Assembly: GCA_051294375.1 (NCBI GenBank)
Contig: JBJCIZ010000332.1
Location: 1 to 10,445 of the forward strand
DNA length: 10,445 nt
Reading direction: 5' to 3'
DNA from: Paraspadella gotoi
Lineage: Eukaryota > Animalia > Chaetognatha
Under the pieces are notes generated by a model. That model saw only the letters and a program-made list of their open reading frames with translations, was not told the origin of the DNA and did no database searches. Both the position numbers and the translations under genes were made by a program. Of the stretch, positions 1-10,445 are shown piece by piece; positions within the stretch are counted from its first letter, which is position 1, and the number at the start of each line of letters is the position of its first letter.

Positions 1-12
1 CTCCGCGAACAC

Positions 13-303
13 GTTCCGTTTTCGCATCCGTTCCGATCCGTGCCGATCCGTTACCGTTTTTCGTTCCGTTTCGTTCCGTTTTCGTTCCGTTTCGTTCCGT
101 TTCGTTTCTCCGTTCGTTCCGTTTCTTCCGTTCCGTTCCGTTTTCGTTCCGTTTCGTTCCGTTCCGTTCCGTTTCGTTCCGCTCTTCGTTCCGTTTCGTT
201 CCGTTTCTTCCGTTTCGTTCCGTTTCTTCCGTTTCGTTCCGTTTCTTCCGTTTCGTTTCGCGTTCCGTTTCGTTTTGTTTCCTTCTATTCCGTTCCATTC
301 CTA
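13..303. repeat. (TTCCG/TTTCG)n pentanucleotide microsatellite, possibly the end of a MITE-like element
   Basis: Dense run of GTTCC/GTTTC pentamers ending abruptly in TATTCCGTTCCATTCCTA. The ORF 40..375 is a translation of this repeat. Confidence 0.9.
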
Positions 304-975: not shown

Positions 976-2095
976 CTTTTGAAAGAAGTGAATATATAAA
1001 GGAATCTTATCGGAACTTCGATTCGAACGATGCGCAGCCCTACTCTAATGTTCAATAAAAATTTAAACAATTTTTTTTTCTTTCGGTTAAAACTAGATTT
1101 TTAAAAATAAAATATTTATTTAAAATGCTAAGCCTAAATTTCTACAAAACAAATTTTTACTTAAAACTGGATTCTCTTTACAGTAAGCTCAATTTCTACT
1201 TCTTATAATTTTAATTCTTTCCTTTGGTACAAGTACATACTTGGAGTTGTAACACTAATAATGTCTAAACCAAACTACTCTACACCATATTTTAAGATGG
1301 GGTTTTATGCTTTTATGAGTTGTTACTGAGTTAAAAAACTTATCGAATTTAGTTTCAATTTGACTTTTTACTTAATGTAAATGTTTATATCATAAAATAG
1401 TTGCCCTATTTCTAGGGAATCCCTGAAAAAGAAAAATCTAAATCTGAATTAAAAAAATTAAAAAAACAGTAAGCCCATTTTTTTAAAAAAGACAATTCCG
1501 CGGGGGCGTTGAACCAATAACTCCGTCCATCACATCCCGCTGCTTGTGTATGTTGTGGTGAATCTTGCAAAAGTAATGAGTACAGGCAATTTAACTTTCT
1601 TCGACGAGTTGAAGTTAAAAAACAAAGAGTTGCAGCTCAAACCACAGGATTCTTCTTGAAGAAAAAAATTATCTGGGCAAGGCAAAGGAAAGGTGGGGAG
1701 ATTCTGATGAGCGCGTTGGCAAAAATGTTTTTTTCGTTTTCAAAAGATATCAAGGGAATTTATACCCAAAAATTGCACTAAAATAAATCAAATTTTCTAT
1801 GCAAGGAAGGCAAATCCCGTTGAAAGCTAACTTTTCATAGAATGGAGTTCTGTGACCTAAAGTAATCCATGCCAAAATTTAATGAGAAAAACCGCCTTAC
1901 CGTCTTTGGGCTGCAACTCTTCAAGATAGCGTTTCTTTTATTTTATATAGTAAAAAAAAAATCGGAAAAAATGGATAAACGCCTTTGAAATAATAGTAAA
2001 GTTAATACATTTTCGCGAACTCGCCAGAAAGCCTCTCCTCGAAATCCGAGCTCCGGTTTTAGCCCTAATATAATTGAATTGATGATCCCGGCACC

Positions 2096-2292
2096 TTAAA
2101 ACCAATTTCACTCGCACGGATCCCTCGAAACTTTCATATCCATCTCAATCACACAGTTTCCTACCCCACACACAAAATTTCATACCAATCCATCCATCCA
2201 ATCACGAGTAATTGGTGTTTTTTTGCTAAGGTGGGACGGACAGACGGACGGAACCGGACGGACGGACATCATTTTTTTGCATAATTAATCAA
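2096..2292 (-). mobile_element. Truncated copy of the DINE/HINE-like core (GTCC microsatellite plus one internal repeat unit)
   Basis: Reverse complement reads TTATGCAAAAAAATGATGTCCGTCCGTCC...CCCACCTTAGCAAAAAA...GGATTGGTATGAAATTTTGTGTGTGGGGTAGGAAACTGTGTGATTGA, colinear with ~3113-3310 and ~10238-10400. Confidence 0.85.
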
Positions 2293-2442: not shown

Positions 2443-2865
2443 AAAACTTTATATAAAAATGACAATATTATATATCTTCTGGAAAGCTTTTAAAAATATC
2501 CAAAATAGTTTGCATAATTAAAATTAGCCTATCAAGCTTTAAGATAATATCTAAATAAAAATTTTTAAAGAGCAGTTTTTAAATAATTATTAAATTATGT
2601 TAGCTATTTTATATTTACGTTTTTTTAAGCTTTTTTATGATACTTATATAAACAATATTGTAAGATCATTAAGTAAAAATAGGTCAGATTATTTAAAAAA
2701 AATATTTAAGGATTTATTTATTCAATTTGGAATTATCTTTAAATAAACTAAAGCTGGTTAGCTCCGTATTTTCATATTATAATATCTTAAATATATCATT
2801 TTCTTCAAATTTTCAAAAGCTTTCACGAAGATTTATAATATTGGAACCTTTTATTTAAAAGTTCT
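2443..2865. mobile_element. Fold-back / MITE-like segment with imperfect long inverted repeats
   Basis: 2443-2496 (AAAACTTTATATAAAAATGACAATATTATATATCTTCTGGAAAGCTTTTAAAAA) matches the reverse complement of 2810-2865. An inner match TTTAAAGATAAT / ATTATCTTTAAA lies at ~2538 / ~2732. The segment is largely absent from the homologous right arm. Confidence 0.6.
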
Positions 2866-2917
2866 TATTTGGACGAGAAAAAAATGATTATTGATTTAAA
2901 AATGGTTATTGTTTTAA

Positions 2918-2969
2918 TTTAAATCAGACATGTTGACTCTAGGACTAAGAGTCTTCATCAGCATTTAAA
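2918..2969 (-). ncRNA. Degenerate minimal type I hammerhead ribozyme (GAAA core reduced to AA)
   Basis: Minus strand: TTTAAATG-CTGATGA-A-GACTCT-tagtcct-AGAGTC-AA-CATGTC-TGATTTAAA. Stems I and II are intact but two nucleotides of the conserved GAAA are missing. Confidence 0.75.
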
Positions 2970-3223
2970 ATCACAAACGTATTCAGTTTTTAGTCGGTCT
3001 GCTTATCAGCAGCATCCCGACTCTATAATTCACTTTGTCGGTCCGTCGCCGTCCGCCCCCTCAATATTGTCGGGCACACACTTATATCATGTCAGAACAT
3101 CGAATATGATAAATTATGCAAAAAAAACGATGTTCACGTCCGTCCGTCCGTCGCTCTGTCCGGTCCTCCGTCCCACCTTAGCAAAAAACTTCCAATACTC
3201 GGATTTGATGAATGGATTGGTAT

Positions 3224-4730
3224 GGAAATTTTTGTGTGTTGGGTAGGAAAACTGTGTGATTGAATGGATATGAAGTTTCGGGGAATCGTAGCGAGTGGAA
3301 ATTGGTTTAAATGGAAAAAATAAAAAAATATTTCACTATCTGAACGCCAATTGGCTCGATGCAGTAGATAGGGCAATGACTTGAAATTTTGTTAATATAT
3401 ATAGTGTGTGATTGCCAGCTGGATATAAAGTTTCGATGGGCAATCGTGCCGTACGTGGAAATAAGTTTAAAATGGAAAAAACCAAAAGTCATATTACTTG
3501 GAAGTATTATTTACTAAATTTACTCATAATTATTATGTTTATTAAAAAGTTGGATAGATAAATCGAAATTGAATTTGAGTGTGGGTAGGGAAGTATGTGA
3601 TAAAGCTGGATATAAATTTTTAGATGAATCGTAGGAGTGGAAAAGAGTTTCAAATTAGAAAACCAAAAAACACAAATTTATTTGAATTTATGTTAAAGTT
3701 CTCTTCTCCTATCTCTCTCTGATTATATTGATTGATTGATTGATGATGCATGATGACTTACAAATTATGCAAATTGACAACCAAAAATATTGCAGGCCTT
3801 GACCCACCCACCTATTGCCAGTTGACAAAATTCTGCAAAGTATCAAGTCTGCAACGTTGACCAACAATTATGCCTGTTGCACCAAATTATGCCAGTTTGA
3901 CCAAATAGGCCAGTGATAAATTAGGCCAGTTGACCAAATTATGCCGGTGACCAAATTAATTTAATTTGATCAAATTACGTCAGTTACAAAATTATGCCAA
4001 GTTGGATTAAATTATGCAAGTGCACCAAGTTAGCTTATTCCACCTAATTATCGAATGACCTGCGAATTTTGTATGTGAGTAGAAAAGTGTGTGATTGAAC
4101 AGGAAACAAGTTTCGATGGAATCTTTTGAGTTGGAAATGAGTTTAAATGGAAAAAAACAAAAAACCTGTTTTACTAAATTAATTTCTTTTTTTATATTTT
4201 TATGTTAAAGTAAATGCAGGATGTATTAATAAATCAAATAATTCAATCAGTTAATTAATCAATTAGTCAATTTAATTAATCAATAATTAATTAATCAGTC
4301 AACCAATCCGTCCATCCGTCCCACCTTAGCAAAAGCTCAATAACTCGTTGATTGCGCTGGTTGGAATTGAATGGAATTTGTGTGTGGCGGTAGGGAAAGT
4401 GTAAAATGATTAAAGCTGGATATATAAGTTATCGACGAATCGTGGTGAGTGGAAATGAGTTTAAGTGGACAAAACATAAGGTCGCATTTACTAAAACTAT
4501 TTTTACTTATAACCAATAAGTACTTCTAATTAATCAAATTGGAGTGGATAGATGAGTTCAAATTTTGCCGTTGGTGGGGTAGGGAAAGTTGTGTGATTGA
4601 AGCTTGATATTAAAGTTTCGTTTACGAGTGGAAATGAGTTTAAATAAAAAAATATGGTCACATTACTATGAATCTTTTTATTATTTTAAACCCCATAATA
4701 GATGAGAATGAAATTTTGTGAGCGGGCTAG
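3224..4730 (+). repeat. Internal ~160-190 bp repeat unit, about six copies plus fragments
   Basis: Consensus GAAATTTTGTGTGTGGGTAGGAAA.TGTGTGATTGA..TGGATATAAGTTTCGATGGAATCGT..GAGTGGAAATGAGTTTAAATGGAAAAAAC at ~3224, 3383, 3571, 4064, 4374 and 4560. Truncated at ~4710, with another fragment at ~5380-5455. Confidence 0.85.
3760..4050. repeat. ~18 bp minisatellite (TTGACCAAATTATGCCAG)n, degenerate
   Basis: Recurrent CAAATTATGCCAGTTGAC variants throughout the interval. Confidence 0.85.
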
Positions 4731-4735
4731 AGAGC

Positions 4736-4766
<31 letters not shown>

Positions 4767-5060
4767 AGAAAGAGACAGGAGACGAGAGCAGAAAAATGAG
4801 ATAAGCGATCGTCGCAATTGCAAAAGCAGAGAGGAGAGAGAGAGAAGAGAGAGAGAGAGGAGATGAGAGGAGTAGAGAGAGAGAGAGAGGACGAGGAAAG
4901 AGAGCCAGCCAAAAATGAGCATTAGGAATCGTCGCAATTGCAAAGAGAGCAGAGAGAGAGAGAGACTGAGAGACGAAGAGAAGAGAGAGAGAGGAGAGCA
5001 GAAAAAATGAGCATAAGGATTCGTTTCAATTGCAAAGAGAGAAAGAGAGAAAGAGTCCGA
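4728..5060. repeat. (GA)n tracts alternating with a ~45 bp conserved block, three copies
   Basis: AGCAGAAAAATGAG(C)ATAAG.GATCGTCGCAATTGCAAA at ~4787, ~4906 and ~4997 between GA runs; a diverged fourth block lies at ~5547-5630. Confidence 0.85.
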
Positions 5061-5472
5061 GATTAAAATTAGCAAATAAAAAAAGTTGTTATTTTACTCA
5101 CTGAATAAAAATATTAAAATACTTACAACCAATACATTAACAAATTGATAAAAAATATTATTCCGATAACATTGTTTAATTCACATGGCCAATATATCTA
5201 GTAAGGCGGGCCAAAAATTGAACATATTTTATAACTTCTAGTTTCTCTCTTAAAAATTTTGTTTTCCTTTTACTACTTAAATCGATTTTTCAATGTAACT
5301 TGTTGAATTAGTTCATTTGGTTGTGCACTGAGCTTTTAAATATTTATTAATATCATAATAATTATTATTAAAGTTTTGACGGAATTGTGGCCAGTAGAAA
5401 TTAGTTTAGATGGCGAAAAAAACATAAGTCACATTTACTTGAATCTTTAATATTAATGATTACTAATAAATG

Positions 5473-5507
5473 TTTAATTAATTAATTAATTTAATTAATT
5501 AATTAAT
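5473..5507. repeat. (TAAT)n microsatellite
   Basis: TTTAATTAATTAATTAATTTAATTAATTAATTAAT; similar tracts at ~4250-4295 and ~5790-5822. Confidence 0.8.
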
Positions 5508-5875
5508 AGTGAAAAAATGGATGCAAGTTAAAAAGAATCTTACAAAGCCATTAAAGATGCGTTCGCATATTGCCATAAAAAGAGGAACGGATGGAGCAGA
5601 GAGAGAGTGAGAGAGCTGAGAAGAGAGATGAGAAGGCAAAGGCCAAAAATAAAATAGAGGATATTTGTTTGTTTTGATTAAAATGTAAAACAAAGAAACA
5701 TATTAATAAACTGTCCTAACCCAATTTTTAAGGAACATCGATGATGATAAGTTGAATATAAATTTCTAAAATTTAATTATTACATATTAAAATTAAATAA
5801 TTAATTAATTAATCGTATTAATAATATCGGTAGGCAGATCCGACATTGTTTAGCTCAAACTGTTTAAATATTGCA

Positions 5876-6180
5876 GTTTGTGAATTTTAAATGCTGATGA
5901 AGACTCGAAAGTTATTGAGTCGAAACATGTCCGATTTAAATAAAAACAAAATTATTGTTGTTAACTAATGAATTTTCGTTTTCTCTCTAAATAATTATAA
6001 AAAACAATAAAAGAAAGGATTAATTCAATGTAAATTTAAAAAAAAAATATTCATAAAGTTAGTCAAAAAATTTTCAAAAACTATTTCTTTTAAAATGAAA
6101 GACAATTTTTAAAGCAACTTTTACCTGGTCATTGCCAAGTCAAATCATAACCAATCAATATGAAATTTGGATATATAAAT
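5876..6180 (+). repeat. Right inverted arm carrying a hammerhead motif; homologous to 2300-2978
   Basis: Matches the reverse complement of the left arm at 5876-5950 and ~6045-6180, and lacks the fold-back segment. Confidence 0.8.
5886..5940 (+). ncRNA. Minimal type I hammerhead ribozyme (Penelope-like-element type), intact core
   Basis: Stem I TTTAAATG (5886-5893) / C(G)ATTTAAA (5932-5940); core CTGATGA (5894-5900) plus an extra A; stem II GACTC/GAGTC (5902-5906 / 5917-5921); GAAA (5922-5925); palindromic ACATGT in place of a full stem III; GUC triplet at 5929-5931, predicted cut after 5931. Confidence 0.85.
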
Positions 6181-6388
6181 GATTTAGGTTTTTACTATAG
6201 AAAAAATCTTTCAGATTAAAAATATATTCAAAAGTTTGCAAATGACAATTTTTTATTTAGCGGCGGGCTGTCGTATGTCACCTTGTAACCCAGGCTTTTT
6301 GTTTATTTCTGAGCTTCAACCCAAACTCTAGGTTGTAGTTTATTCAAATAACAATGTTACCGGCAATTCATGCATCAGTCACAATTGT

Positions 6389-7327
6389 GGTTCTAGTTGG
6401 TTGGCGACTTTACTATGGCAATATCGGCAAAGCCCTGGTGGTGTTGCCAATACCCTCACTGGTGACTTCGCCAGTAATAAAAGTAATGAATATAATGATA
6501 GGCGCAAGTTAAAGAAAAAGCTTGCGGCTGAAGTTGAGACATGGGGATAGATACATCACCTGCAGGCTCTTCCCTCAAAACTAAACCCTAACCCAAGTCT
6601 CCCATACATCTCCATGCCTTTCCCCAACCCTAACCCAGGCCTAGGTCTCCCATACATTTTCATGCATCAACCATAACCACCTTCGACGCGCCCACTGTGG
6701 GCTTTCCTTACCCTAACCCTTACCCGGGCCTCCATTTTTCTCCCCTAATCCTAACCCAGGCCTCCAGTACATCTCTGTGCCTCAACCCAACCCTAACTGC
6801 CTTCGATGCATCAACCATGGTCTTTTCCCCTAACCCGAGCCTCCCAATCAACTCCATGCTTTTCTCCCAACTCTAACCCTAACCCGGGCCTGGGCTTCCC
6901 ATATATCTCTGTTCCTCAACCCTAACTTTAACCGCCTTTGATGCATCAACAGTAAGTCTCTCCCCATACCCTAACCCAGGCCTACCATTCAACTCCAAGC
7001 CTCTCTCCTAACCCTAACCTAAACCCCGGACCTTGCCTCCCTTATATATCCGTACCTCAACTTTAATCCCTAATATCTATTGCCAGTACCTTATTTAACC
7101 CTAATGCCGGCTTGTTTATCTTAACCTTAAAATTGACATTAACCCTAACCATAACCTTAAACTACTCAACCTTAACCCTAACCCTAAACTACTTAACCCT
7201 AACCCTAATTATTACAAACTCAACCTTAACCCTAAACCAAACCAACTCAACCTTAACCCTAAACCTAACCAACCTAATCTAACCCTAAACTACCTCAACC
7301 CTAACCCTAACCATAATCTGAGTTTTA
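6389..7327 (+). mobile_element. Telomere-repeat-bearing element, copy 1 (more decayed, right TIR missing)
   Basis: Begins GGTTCTAGTTGGTTGGCGAC, continues into a CCCTAA-punctuated composite repeat and a degenerate CCCTAA tail, and ends TAATCTGAGTTTTA. Colinear with the reverse complement of 8824-9670. Confidence 0.8.
7140..7312. repeat. Degenerate interstitial (CCCTAA)n telomere-like tract
   Basis: AACCCTAACCCTAA variants interleaved with ACTACTC/ACCAACTC motifs. Confidence 0.85.
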
Positions 7328-7419
7328 AGAAGAATCTCTATAACGAGAATGCTAAATATAATTCACAGTTAAATTACCAAAGAGTGAGGATGTCACCAAA
7401 AAATAAAAAAAATATTTAG

Positions 7420-7596: not shown

Positions 7597-7598
7597 AT

Positions 7599-7770
7599 GG
7601 AGCCGAAATTGGAGCCGGAGCCAAGTTGAAATTTTTGCTGGAGCCGGAGCCGGAGCCGAAAAAAAATTTTGCTTGGAGCCGGAGCCGGAGCTGGAGCTGA
7701 AAAAAAATTTGGCCTGGAGCTGGAGCCGGAGCTGGAGCCGAGACAAAATTAGATCGGCTCCACATCCCTG
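7599..7770 (+). mobile_element. (GGAGCC/GGAGCT)n-containing MITE-like fragment with terminal hairpin
   Basis: Hexamer runs separated by AAAAAAATTT spacers; GGAGCCG (7734-7740) pairs with CGGCTCC (7755-7761); ends ACATCCCTG. No matching left end found. Confidence 0.65.
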
Positions 7771-8675
7771 GTCTCAAATATGAGAGATTTTAGCGTCCAC
7801 TCTCATCAAACAGCTGAAGAAATGTATTAAGTTGAATTTCAAGTCTCAACTACATCTCTGAGCTTAAAACAGCACCAGCAATCTGCTGGAGAGGAGTAGC
7901 CATTATGTTGAAGGACTAGGAACCACAAAGTGTTCTTACAAAATTTTATTAACAATTAGTAGCTCCAAATAAAAAAAATATTGTTTTCAAAAATATTGGT
8001 GTAGCTACATCCTGGAGGATTTTTTCTGTACAGAATATTTAAACTAGTAAAAAATATTCATAATACTTATTCATAATATTAATTATAGCATTAATAAATG
8101 AAGTAGCATATGATAAGAAAGTTGGGTAGATTTTATCTTGATTGACGCACTACTTCAGAAGGTAGCCTCTTTAAAAAGATCCCCAAAATCTTTTTTCCAC
8201 ACGCTATTAATCTGAAAAAAATAAAAGTTATTTATTCAAAAAAACATTTATTAGTTGCCTAAACACACTAGGTTCAATTTTTTATGAGTACAATGTGAGT
8301 AAGAATCTCCACAGACTTCCTGGAGGCTTTCTCCATATGTTGGAGGATGTGGACGAAACTTTGGAGTTAAAAAAAAATTGTAACAAAAGGAATTTACATT
8401 TATTCATAAATGCAATTTCCTTTTAAAAGCTAAAGCCCTAAAAGCATTAACAATTTTGATCAAGTTGCGCTCACATCTTTGTGGATTATCCTTGTACAGA
8501 CTGCTTAAAGAGTGAAAAATATATATAAAATAATTTGAAATTATTATAGGATGACCTCATTTTGTAAAATTTATTATAATGATCACACTAAACTCACTTT
8601 ACCAAAATATATTCGTCGGTTCCAATGTTTGTAAAAAGATATTTTTTAAGGTTATCCTTTTTGAAACAAAAAATA

Positions 8676-8795
8676 TTCAGCCCTAAGTTGTAGTTCATTC
8701 AAATAGCAATGTCGCCGGCGCATTCACGCCAAAGTCGCAGTGTGGTTCTTGTTGGTTGGCGAACTTCGCCATGGCGATATCGCCAGGGCTTTGGC
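8676..8795 (+). mobile_element. Truncated 5' fragment of the telomere-repeat element plus shared upstream flank
   Basis: GTTGTAGTTCATTCAAATAGCAATGTCGCCGGC...TGTGGTTCTTGTTGGTTGGCGAAC... is a direct-orientation match to ~6315-6440. Confidence 0.8.
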
Positions 8796-9670
8796 GTTCT
8801 AGTTATGGCGATTTCACCTAAACTAAAACTCAGATTAGGGTTAGGGTGAGGGTTGATTGGTTTAGGATTAGGGTTGATTGGTAGTAGTTAGGGTTAGGGT
8901 TGAGTAGTTTAGGGCTAGGTTGAGTAGTTTTTATTAATGTCATTTTAGGATAGGGGTAGGGAGGGTGTTTGTGATGACCAAGAGGCCCGCGTTAGGCTTA
9001 GGGAAGTATTGGCGAGGGACATTAGGGATTAGGGTTGAGGCACGGAGATGTACGCGGAGGCCTGGCCCGGTTTAGGGTTAGGTTGGGAGAGAGGCCCGTG
9101 TTTATATATCAAAGGCGATTAGAGTTAGGGTTGAGGTACGGAGATGTAGAAGGAGGCCGCGGCCTGGGTTAGGGTTAGGGAGAGGCATGGAGTGAACGGG
9201 AGGCTTGGTTTAGGGTTAGGGTTGGGGGAGGGACCCATGGTTGATGCATCGAAGGGCGGTTAGGGTTAGGGTTGAGGCAACGGAGATGTACGCGGAGGCC
9301 TGGCCTGGGTTAGGGTTTAGGGGAGAGCACCAGAGTTGAACGGGAGGCTTGGTTTAGGGTTAGCATTGGGGAGGACCCGTGGTTGTTGCAACAAAGGCAG
9401 TTTAGGGTTAGGGTTGAGGCATGACAATGATCGGGAGGCCCAGGCCCGGGTTTAGGGTTAGGGGAGAGGCACAGAGTTGAACGGAGGTTTGGTTTTTAGG
9501 GTTAGGGTTGGGAGAGGATCCTGTAGGTGATGTTCTATCCCTTTGTTAGCTGCGCTTTTCAGTATATTCGCTACTTTTATCACTGGCGAGGTCGCCAGTG
9601 GGAGGACTGGCTGACATCGCCAAAGCCCTGGCGATATCGCCATGGCGAAGTCGCCACACCAACTAGAACC
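8796..9670 (-). mobile_element. Telomere-repeat-bearing TIR element, copy 2 (apparently complete, ~875 bp)
   Basis: Imperfect TIRs GTTCTAGTTATGGCGATTTCACC (8796-8818) and GGCGAAGTCGCCACACCAACTAGAACC (9644-9670); internal TTAGGG-rich composite repeat; no coding capacity; no clear TSD seen. Confidence 0.75.
9020..9515 (+). repeat. ~141 bp composite repeat of three blocks separated by TTAGGG doublets
   Basis: TTGAGG(C/T)A recurs at 9131, 9272 and 9413. Blocks are A GTTGAGGCACGGAGATGTACGCGGAGGCCTGGCCTGGG, B GGAGAGGCA..GAGTTGAACGGGAGGCTTGG and C GGGGAGGACCC.TGGTTGATGCATCGAAGGC.G. Confidence 0.85.
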
Positions 9671-9807
9671 TCGATTTATTAACAGCCAAAAACTGTTATG
9701 AATTTTAAGTCATTGATTTATTTTTTCAAAACTGTTAATCATCAATTATTACTTATAAATAATACTTATGTCACAACCGCACTGAATGCCTGACTGCAGG
9801 TGGCTGT

Positions 9808-10113
9808 GGTATTCCTCCCCGCAGGGATTCCTCCAACTGGATTCTTCCCACACGGGATTCTCCCACGCGGATTCCTCCTATGGATTCCTCCCACTCTGGA
9901 TTCCTCCCACACGGAATTCCTCCCACACAGGATTTCTCCCACACGTGATACTCCCACGCGGGATTACTCCCACACCGATTATCTCCACACAGGGATTCCT
10001 CCAACACGGGATTTCTCCACACGGGATTCGTCCCACGCGGGATATCTCCCACACTGATTCCTCCTACATGGATTCCTCCCACACGCGATTCCTTCCCACA
10101 CGGATCTCTCCCC
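9808..10113. repeat. 16-17 bp minisatellite (GGGATTCCTCCCACAC)n
   Basis: Roughly 18 degenerate tandem units; explains the four overlapping ORFs here. Confidence 0.9.
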
Positions 10114-10145
10114 TAAATTGCTGATTAACTTTCTTGTGATGTTCC

Positions 10146-10445
10146 ACTCTATATTCACTTTGTCAGTCCGTCGGTCCCACCCCTAAATATTGTCGGTACA
10201 TCATTATTATCATATCAGAACCTCGAATTATGATAAATTATGCCAAAAAAATGATGTCCGTCCGTCCGTCCCCCCTTAGCAAAAAACTCCAATTACTTGT
10301 GACTGGATGGATGGATTGGTATAAAATTTTGTGTGTAGGTAGGAAACTGTGTGATTGATATGGATATGAAGTTTCGATGGAATCGTGCGAGTGAAAAAGA
10401 GTTAGAATGGAAAAAACAAAAGTCATATTTACTTGAAGTATTTTT
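10146..10445 (+). mobile_element. Second DINE/HINE-like copy, lacking the 5' hairpin and running off the window end
   Basis: ACTCTATATTCACTTTGTCAGTCCGTC...AATATTGTCGG...TCAGAAC.TCGAAT.ATGATAAATTATGC...GTCCGTCCGTCC...CTTAGCAAAAAACT is colinear with ~3020-3330. Confidence 0.85.

What the first reader, a model, noticed from the sequence alone, without database searches (positions are those of the whole stretch)
5886..5940. Intact minimal hammerhead with palindromic stem III, predicted to need dimerisation
All core nucleotides are present (CUGAUGA, GAAA, GUC). Stem III would close only a 2-nt loop, but ACAUGU is self-complementary, as in Penelope-type minimal hammerheads reported to cleave as dimers. 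There is no same-strand partner in this window, so activity would need a trans partner such as another transcript or the opposite-strand copy, which retains ACAUGU. The last point is inference.
Basis: partly seen in the sequence, partly recalled or inferred. Interest (0 to 1): 0.75.

Follow-up and report, generated by a model that had tools for sequence, protein, structure and literature searches.

The report
Leftover Penelope-type hammerhead, likely inactive
This is one copy of a common repeat that carries a small hammerhead RNA motif of a kind already described in Penelope-like jumping genes; it is likely one arm of an old mirror-image insertion that a second jumping gene later split, and it is predicted not to cut here because the only other copy in the window is broken and faces the other way.

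Summary
The motif is real: core CUGAUGA/GAAA/GUC, helix II of 5-7 pairs and palindrome ACAUGU (1 of 1000 shuffles gave a similar hit). It belongs to an abundant dispersed repeat: 48-259 contigs per run lay on this stretch, with no core variant at 5% or more. No same-strand partner and no PLE protein frame lie in the window. The opposite-strand copy (2917-2970) lacks G12 and one A, so it cannot supply the half that cuts after C5931; as antisense it is predicted to pair with the whole core. The two copies are likely arms of one head-to-head PLE stub, split by a 2.87-kb DINE-1/Helentron-like element (one contig shows the empty junction). The link to a PLE protein gene and any cleavage are untested. 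The scan has noted this motif class 41 times in at least 19 genomes. Ordinary; interest low.

The parts
5885..5893 (+). Helix I, 5' arm
   Evidence: Sequence; distal seven A-U pairs at probability 0.70-0.99 in the isolated motif, proximal G5893-C5932 at 0.15
5894..5900 (+). Catalytic core C3-A9 (CUGAUGA)
   Evidence: no variant at 5% or more in 4 runs
5901..5901 (+). Extra A between A9 and G10.1, a described trait of PLE hammerheads
   Evidence: PMC4209133
5902..5921 (+). Helix II (5 firm pairs, 7 in this copy) and loop II; G10.1-C11.1 present
   Evidence: pair probabilities 0.86-1.0; loop II carries 11 of the 12 indel rows shown and a majority variant at 5916
5922..5925 (+). Core G12-A15.1 (GAAA)
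   Evidence: no variant at 5% or more
5925..5930 (+). Palindromic helix III, ACAUGU; six pairs possible only between two molecules
   Evidence: G>A at 5929 in 5.5-15% of depth in 3 of 4 runs breaks the palindrome
5931..5931 (+). C17, predicted cleavage site 3' of this base
   Evidence: hammerhead numbering; cleavage untested
5932..5940 (+). Helix I, 3' arm, with bulged or wobble G5933
   Evidence: 7 of 32 listed contig pieces span the motif without gaps at 2-5 differences, so this shape is shared by a subfamily
5939..5944 (+). AATAAA, likely the poly(A) signal of the repeat, overlapping the end of helix I
   Evidence: such a hexamer lies within 45 nt after the cut in 10 of 13 distinct related loci against 240 of 2884 background bins
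5866..6015 (+). Right arm: likely 5'-truncated PLE pseudo-LTR stub (short leader, hammerhead, about 80 nt of tail)
   Evidence: repeat cover peaks at 5888-5941 and tails off to about 6015; PLE origin inferred
2917..2970 (-). Second hammerhead copy, lacking G12 and one A; different loop II
   Evidence: 49 of 58 columns identical to copy 1
2865..2991 (-). Left arm of the likely head-to-head pair (left end approximate)
   Evidence: tail aligns weakly to copy 1's tail for about 60 nt past the cut; junction seen in one contig
2992..5862 (+). DINE-1/Helentron-like element, possibly nested, that likely split the two arms
   Evidence: inverted ends 12 of 14 alike, exact 11-mer at 5834-5844, inner inverted repeat and GTCC microsatellite near the left end, same-strand internal repeats D9/D14/D15, T-runs on both sides, very deep cover of the left end

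Best explanation
The motif is a type I hammerhead with a complete core, an extra A after A9 and a palindromic helix III, and it sits in an abundant dispersed repeat that is likely the truncated end repeat (pseudo-LTR) of a Penelope-like retrotransposon; it is predicted to cut only as a dimer with an intact same-sense copy and is likely inactive at this locus. Shown: anatomy, repeat status, conserved core with variable loop II, no same-strand partner, no protein frame, broken opposite-strand copy. Inferred mechanism in the parent element: two hammerheads of a tandem transcript swap strands through ACAUGU so that helix III becomes six intermolecular pairs, probably helped by the element's protein, and each cuts the other's GUC just upstream of the poly(A) signal. 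Inferred history here: reverse transcription from the tail gave a head-to-head pair of short stubs about 58 nt apart between their cores; a DINE-1/Helentron-like element then inserted into the T-run between them and the left copy lost two core bases. Step odds: real hammerhead-derived motif 0.97; PLE-derived stub 0.85; one split head-to-head insertion 0.7; no appreciable cleavage at this locus in vivo 0.85.
For: Anatomy and chance. Extra nucleotide, G10.1-C11.1, long helix II, small palindromic helix III, 2-pair helix I, mostly single motifs, and close pairs on opposite strands are all described for PLE hammerheads (PMC4209133). Repeat status: 201, 259, 90 and 48 contigs laid in 4 of 4 runs; 0 of 13 core positions with a variant at 5% or more; 10 of 12 substitution rows lie in the tail. 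Related loci with the same core words: helix I, which was not in the search pattern, shows two-sided changes at 5 of 5 pairs, 0 of 500 shuffles reaching the covariation score; all 7 close neighbour pairs are minus-then-plus, the orientation seen here. Inverted 5'-truncated copies are typical of PLE insertions (PMC8557442 passages). Empty junction: one contig of run X5 runs from letters equal to 2982-2991 straight into 19 letters of which 18 match 5866-5885 with one base skipped (table 7, compared by eye). Element ends fit the DINE-1/HINE description. Inactivity: monomer active fold 10 kcal/mol above the minimum; active dimer -19.6 against -23.2 for two monomers; antisense duplex -61.6; 3-kb read-through pairs the whole motif with copy 2.
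Against: No PLE protein gene was linked to this family: 0 RT or GIY-YIG hits in 118 window frames of 40 aa or more and in 80 of 145 frames from 15 of 16 related loci; no genome was held. The strict published minimal descriptor is not met (it wants two bases between GAAA and UH and three pairs in helix I). A palindrome-breaking G>A at 5929 stands in 5.5-15% of depth in 3 of 4 runs. The empty junction rests on one contig's 29-letter loose end in an organism that shares at most 0.17 of the window's words. The right end of the proposed Helentron-like element has shallow cover (49-399) while its left end has over 100,000 in two runs, which a single intact element does not explain well. The arms differ strongly in loop II, so they may be two separate insertions. 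Conservation counts are biased, since contigs were laid by likeness and related loci were found by their core words. Energies ignore tertiary contacts, magnesium and proteins.
Confidence: 0.75

Rival explanations
1. The motif belongs to a non-autonomous retrozyme or SINE-like element that uses PLE enzymes; this is a solo monomer of it rather than a stub of an autonomous PLE.
For: No protein frame nearby. A one-pair helix III capped by a palindromic tetraloop also occurs in amphibian retrozymes (PMC7229834 passages). Solo retrozyme copies exist and retrozymes are argued to derive from PLE repeats (preprint 10.64898/2026.07.22.740005, part 1).
Against: No tandem array at this place and no second same-sense copy. 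Extra nucleotide, long helix II and a freely varying loop II fit PLE forms, not canonical retrozyme hammerheads with loop-loop contacts. Head-to-head geometry is a PLE insertion trait.
Confidence: 0.12
2. One reading: this copy is a working ribozyme that cuts after C5931 by dimerising in trans, with another family transcript or with the opposite-strand copy.
For: Core complete and close to a deep subfamily (2 differences in 63-66 letters in 3 runs), so intact partners probably exist elsewhere in the genome. Dimers of related motifs cleave weakly (PMC4209133) and a PLE protein can switch cleavage on (PMC11167929).
Against: Opposite-strand copy lacks G12 and an A; no gain on co-folding with its sense RNA and strong antisense pairing; active dimer less stable than two monomers in the model; proximal helix I pair at probability 0.05-0.15. 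In the one PLE tested, no RNA-seq reads ended at the cut site (PMC11167929).
Confidence: 0.1
3. The two copies are independent insertions that happen to flank the Helentron-like element; the mechanism for copy 1 is as in the best explanation. This competes only with the history step.
For: Loop II differs at about half its positions between the arms while pairs in related loci mostly keep similar loops; both loop types occur as family variants; the family is abundant and PLEs tend to insert next to one another (PMC6765202 passage).
Against: Both leaders stop exactly at the T-runs that bound the element, and one contig joins them without it.
Confidence: 0.25
4. A chance arrangement of short words in AT-rich DNA.
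For: Core words alone appear in 116 of 200 shuffles; no Rfam hit.
Against: 0-1 of 1000 shuffles with stems and palindrome; second copy in the window (E 4e-10); hundreds of matching contigs. Viral word matches lack the stems: 14 of 16 parsed, none with helix II over 3 pairs.
Confidence: 0.01

Closest known systems
PLE hammerhead variants with a small palindromic helix III (Drosophila virilis Penelope type; also rotifers, shrimps, mosquitoes; Cervera and de la Pena 2014, PMC4209133)
   Same: [quoted passage not shown]
   Different: No bulge inside helix II; a further seven A-U pairs can form beyond a bulged G; no link to a PLE protein gene shown here.
Strict minimal hammerhead (min-HHR) of metazoan PLE pseudo-LTRs (PMC4209133, descriptor in Fig. 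S7)
   Same: Core, extra N10, helix II of 3-7 pairs, loop II of 3-10 nt, mostly single copies, opposite-strand pairs.
   Different: Four bases, not two, between GAAA and UH; two, not three, contiguous pairs in proximal helix I.
Poseidon element PAc of Anolis (Frangione et al. 2024, PMC11167929)
   Same: Hammerhead near the element end with a tail beyond it; insertion in AT-rich DNA.
   Different: PAc is a full element whose frame starts inside the hammerhead and whose cleavage was shown to need the protein; nothing was assayed here.
Metazoan non-LTR retrozymes (Cervera and de la Pena 2020, PMC7229834)
   Same: Non-coding repeat with a type I hammerhead; amphibian form has a one-pair helix III with a palindromic tetraloop and works as a dimer.
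   Different: Retrozymes are tandem 150-450 bp units with canonical helices and loop-loop contacts; none of these is seen here.
DINE-1 / HINE non-autonomous Helentrons (PMC2374699, PMC4067079), for the element between the two copies
   Same: Sub-terminal inverted repeats, inner inverted repeat and GTCY-type microsatellite near one end, central repeats, small 3' hairpin, T-runs on both sides, no frame.
   Different: The 3' hairpin is only four pairs here; other repeats are nested inside; single-element status not proven.

Membership tests
Type I hammerhead ribozyme | Core C3-A9, G12-A15.1, U16.1-H17 | tested here: met
Type I hammerhead ribozyme | Helix II with G10.1-C11.1 | tested here: met
Type I hammerhead ribozyme | Open helix I joining the 5' and 3' ends | tested here: inconclusive
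   distal seven pairs form; proximal pair 0.05-0.15
Type I hammerhead ribozyme | Self-cleavage after H17 | not testable with these tools
   no assay; only contigs were available
Rfam hammerhead families | Score at or near a family's threshold | tested here: not met
   no hammerhead family listed at E up to 5 or up to 10
Strict PLE min-HHR (PMC4209133 Fig. S7) | GAAA, two bases, UH (no loop III) | tested here: not met
   four bases (CAUG) lie between; descriptor text
Strict PLE min-HHR (PMC4209133 Fig. S7) | Helix I of 3-7 contiguous pairs | tested here: not met
   run of 2
PLE hammerhead, small palindromic helix III variant | Extra nucleotide between 9 and 10.1 | tested here: met
   A5901
PLE hammerhead, small palindromic helix III variant | Long helix II (about 6-8 pairs) | tested here: met
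   7 in this copy; the outer two are not conserved in the family
PLE hammerhead, small palindromic helix III variant | Palindromic 15.2-16.2 and loop III | tested here: met
   ACAUGU; a minority variant breaks it
PLE hammerhead, small palindromic helix III variant | Many dispersed, variable copies | tested here: met
   48-259 contigs per run in 4 of 4 runs of a related or the same organism
PLE hammerhead, small palindromic helix III variant | Lies in the pseudo-LTR of an element with RT and GIY-YIG frame | not testable with these tools
   no genome held; no such frame in window or related loci
PLE hammerhead, small palindromic helix III variant | Cleaves as a dimer, not as a monomer | not testable with these tools
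   folding model only
Non-LTR retrozyme | Tandem 150-450 bp units each with a hammerhead | tested here: not met
   no array here; one same-strand copy
Non-LTR retrozyme | Canonical helices with conserved loop I-loop II contacts | tested here: not met
   loop II varies freely; extra nucleotide present
Non-LTR retrozyme | Abundant circular RNA | not testable with these tools
   no raw RNA reads available
DINE-1/HINE (element 2992-5862) | Sub-terminal inverted repeats of 11-15 bp | tested here: met
   12 of 14 columns; 11-mer in 6 of 200 shuffles at one mismatch
DINE-1/HINE (element 2992-5862) | T-rich target, no duplication, empty site | tested here: inconclusive
   T-runs both sides; one contig shows the junction
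DINE-1/HINE (element 2992-5862) | Microsatellite and central repeats | tested here: met
DINE-1/HINE (element 2992-5862) | 3' stem-loop of 5-11 pairs | tested here: inconclusive
   four pairs at 5848-5860 by inspection

The most novel reading that the evidence does not exclude
The two arms of this mirror-image stub carry different loop II types, so one insertion was copied from two different family RNAs; the palindromic hammerhead would then serve mainly as a dimerisation signal that holds two PLE RNAs together for reverse transcription, much as retroviral dimer signals do, with cutting and poly(A) choice (AAUAAA overlaps helix I) as secondary roles.
Probability: 0.08. Interest if true: 0.6.

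Novelty: new member of a known kind. Interest (0 to 1): 0.17.

Why it matters
As it stands it matters little: animal genomes hold thousands of such motifs (PMC4209133) and this scan has noted the class 41 times. The open question is what PLE hammerheads do in vivo, and a stranded stub does not answer it. The locus would gain value only if a genome-wide count showed that the arms of single head-to-head insertions often come from different subfamilies, which would bear on how PLE insertions are templated.

Tried and rejected
Own-genome search: no genome held, so no copy census, consensus or PLE frame could be obtained. Rfam: no hammerhead match. Pfam on 118 window frames and on 80 of 145 frames (80 aa or more; L011 left out as the mirror of L012) from related loci: no RT or endonuclease; 10 window frames and 2 locus frames had weak hits, all below curated cut-offs. 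Exact pattern in viral contigs and in prokaryote genomes: 0 loci each. A looser viral pattern gave 16 loci; 14 were parsed and none had helix II over 3 pairs, so they were dropped as chance. Expression: no RNA holder listed; run X9 is only guessed to be RNA and is not used. In one search no contig covered 2860-2929, so whether the 2-base loss is private to copy 2 is not shown; loose ends at 2935 (2 contigs each in X1 and X3) read on with an intact GAAAC. The joint 5861-5935 in one contig (side 22 letters) is too weak to use. Contig L011/L012 is a mirror around its centre, probably an assembly artefact; it was counted once. Helices II and III in alignment A2 were fixed by the search pattern and carry no covariation evidence. 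Lunse et al. (PMC5785218) is not held; only its title was seen, in a reference list. Search by sequence among earlier findings: nothing.

Full report
Observation. The window is AT-rich, repeat-dense, non-coding DNA. At 5885-5941 the sequence shows a type I hammerhead: CUGAUGA at 5894-5900, an extra A at 5901, helix II at 5902-5921, GAAA at 5922-5925, the palindrome ACAUGU at 5925-5930 and C17 at 5931. Helix I is irregular: G5893-C5932 and a U-G wobble then a mismatch, or that one pair, a bulged G5933 and seven A-U pairs. AATAAA follows at 5939-5944. A descriptor with stems hit 7 of 1000 shuffles, 1 with a short palindromic helix III and 0 with stems as long as here; the core words alone are not rare (116 of 200). 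Rfam lists no hammerhead family here.

It is a repeat. No genome was held. Nine public runs of one coded organism share a small part of the region's words, at most 0.17. Laying 4 of them on 5780-6020 gave 201, 259, 90 and 48 contigs, with summed depth peaking over 5888-5941 and tailing to about 6015 (the tool warns that depth is no copy number). Of 12 substitution rows at 5% or more, none is in the 13 core positions, one is at 5916 in the loop II region, one at 5929, and ten are in the tail. Eleven of the 12 indel rows shown lie in loop II; 8 more rows were not shown. Seven of 32 listed pieces span the motif without gaps at 2-5 differences, so the extra A and the odd helix I belong to a subfamily and are not decay. 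Against a strict dimer model, G>A at 5929 breaks the palindrome in 5.5-15% of depth in 3 of 4 runs. These counts favour conservation because contigs were laid by likeness.

Relatives. An exact core pattern found 16 metagenome loci, 13 distinct, with different flanks from the window. Helix I was not in the pattern, yet it pairs more than in permuted arms (sum 43 against 29.3, 2 of 10,000) and shows two-sided changes at 5 of 5 pairs (relatedness can inflate such scores). A poly(A)-type hexamer lies within 45 nt after the cut in 10 of 13, against 240 of 2884 background bins. A model built from these 13 and the window copy found 43 matches in the 16 loci. After dropping duplicates, all 7 neighbour pairs under 400 nt apart are minus-then-plus. 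None of 80 frames tested hit RT or GIY-YIG. Viral and prokaryote scans with the exact pattern were empty.

The second copy. The model finds one other strong hit in the window, on the minus strand at 2917-2971. It keeps ACAUGU but lacks G12 and one A, has U at 1.1, and has a different loop II. By established hammerhead chemistry (recalled) G12 is the general base, and in a double hammerhead the cut in one strand is made with the other strand's CUGAUGA and GAAA. Copy 2 therefore cannot cut copy 1 after C5931; at most it could be a substrate. Co-folding shows no gain with its sense RNA and a -61.6 kcal/mol duplex with its antisense RNA. A 3-kb plus-strand read-through is predicted to pair all of 5885-5941 with copy 2. 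For copy 1 alone the minimum fold (-11.6) is not the active one (-1.5 with helix III forced), A15.1-U16.1 has probability 0.0, and the active dimer (-19.6) is less stable than two monomers (-23.2) in a model without tertiary contacts.

History of the locus. The two copies point away from each other, as in the related loci, but 2.9 kb apart. The DNA between them starts at 2992 after a T-run with a very deeply covered repeat end and stops at 5862 before a T-run. Its ends are inverted copies of each other (12 of 14 columns; exact 11-mer at 5834-5844). Near the left end are an inner inverted repeat and a GTCC microsatellite; inside are same-strand repeats spaced near multiples of 160 nt. These are the features listed for DINE-1 and HINE elements (passages of PMC2374699 and PMC4067079). 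One contig of run X5 has a loose end whose first 10 letters equal 2982-2991 and whose next 19 match 5866-5885 at 18 places with one base skipped (table 7, compared by eye): the junction without the element. Removing it leaves two hammerheads about 58 nt apart head to head, close to the 44-270 nt gaps in related loci. This rests on one contig, and the shallow cover of the right end is unexplained, so I give it 0.7.

Mechanism. In an intact PLE the motif sits in both end repeats of a tandem transcript. Two motifs likely swap strands through the palindrome and cut each other just upstream of the poly(A) signal. PMC4209133 (main text read; supplement passages) reports the extra nucleotide, long helix II, palindromic helix III, a 2-pair helix I in the D. 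virilis form, mostly single motifs, opposite-strand pairs, no cleavage of a monomer and low cleavage of dimers. PMC11167929 (passages and part of the main text) reports that the PAc hammerhead cuts only with the element's protein, is not needed for insertion in vitro, and leaves no RNA-seq ends at the site. PMC8557442 (passages) describes 5' truncation and adjacent inverted copies as PLE traits. This copy is best read as such a stub, intact in sequence but without a partner, and likely silent.

Membership. It works like a PLE hammerhead and meets the described traits of the small-palindromic-helix-III variant. It fails the strict loopless descriptor on two counts and the retrozyme test on tandem structure (PMC7229834 passages; preprint 10.64898/2026.07.22.740005 part 1 of 5). 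Linkage to a PLE protein gene and cleavage could not be tested. Lunse et al. on dimer cleavage was seen only as a title in PMC6765202 (passages).

Novelty and verdict. A new member of a known kind. Earlier notes of this scan describe the class 41 times in at least 19 genomes; the 7 notes listed for this genome concern twister motifs. The one unusual point is the loop II mismatch between the arms, which may record two templates, an idea already raised in an unreviewed note on another genome, or simply two insertions. A search for Penelope, hammerhead and polyadenylation signal together returned one review (listing only for that point), so the overlap of AAUAAA with helix I may be little discussed, but one search does not show that. 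Interest 0.17.

Noticed in passing
window 2992-5862: DINE-1/Helentron-like element with inverted ends, GTCC microsatellite and about 160-nt central repeats; partial copies at about 2078-2290 (minus) and 10140-10445 (plus). Its left end is covered roughly 10-20 times deeper than the hammerhead in the same runs.
   Followed up: partly
window 6250-7330 (+) and 8680-9670 (-): Two or more related repeats rich in TAACCC/GGGTTA units, in opposite orientation, with shared heads (6446-6506 with 9551-9611; 8744-8796 with 9618-9670) and a roughly 142-nt period; telomere-like words inside an interspersed element.
   Followed up: no
window 7598-7770: GGAGCC-rich 35/41-nt tandem array with a short inverted end, resembling a non-autonomous DNA transposon.
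   Followed up: no
window 9800-10110: 16-nt minisatellite, about 19 copies, consensus close to ATTCCTCCCACACGGG.
   Followed up: no
window 1-300: (CGTTC/TCCGT)n 5-10 nt tandem array, likely the body of another repeat.
   Followed up: no
window 4690-5060 and 5560-5660: GA-rich repeat with recurring spacer blocks, nested inside the Helentron-like element.
   Followed up: no
window 8381-8428: Near-perfect AT-rich hairpin that gave two weak microRNA-family scores far below threshold; probably chance or a transposon remnant.
   Followed up: no
L001, L002, L006, L012, L013, L014, L015: Related metagenome loci hold head-to-head hammerhead pairs 44-270 nt apart; 43 model matches in 65 kb show very dense hammerhead stubs in those genomes.
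   Followed up: partly
L011/L012: The 14.2-kb contig is a mirror image around a head-to-head hammerhead pair at its centre (235 of 235 identical), probably an assembly artefact caused by the palindrome.
   Followed up: partly
window 5929: A G>A variant that breaks the helix III palindrome stands in 5.5-15% of depth in 3 of 4 runs without a listed matching change at 5926; may be a subfamily with a longer or different helix III.
   Followed up: no
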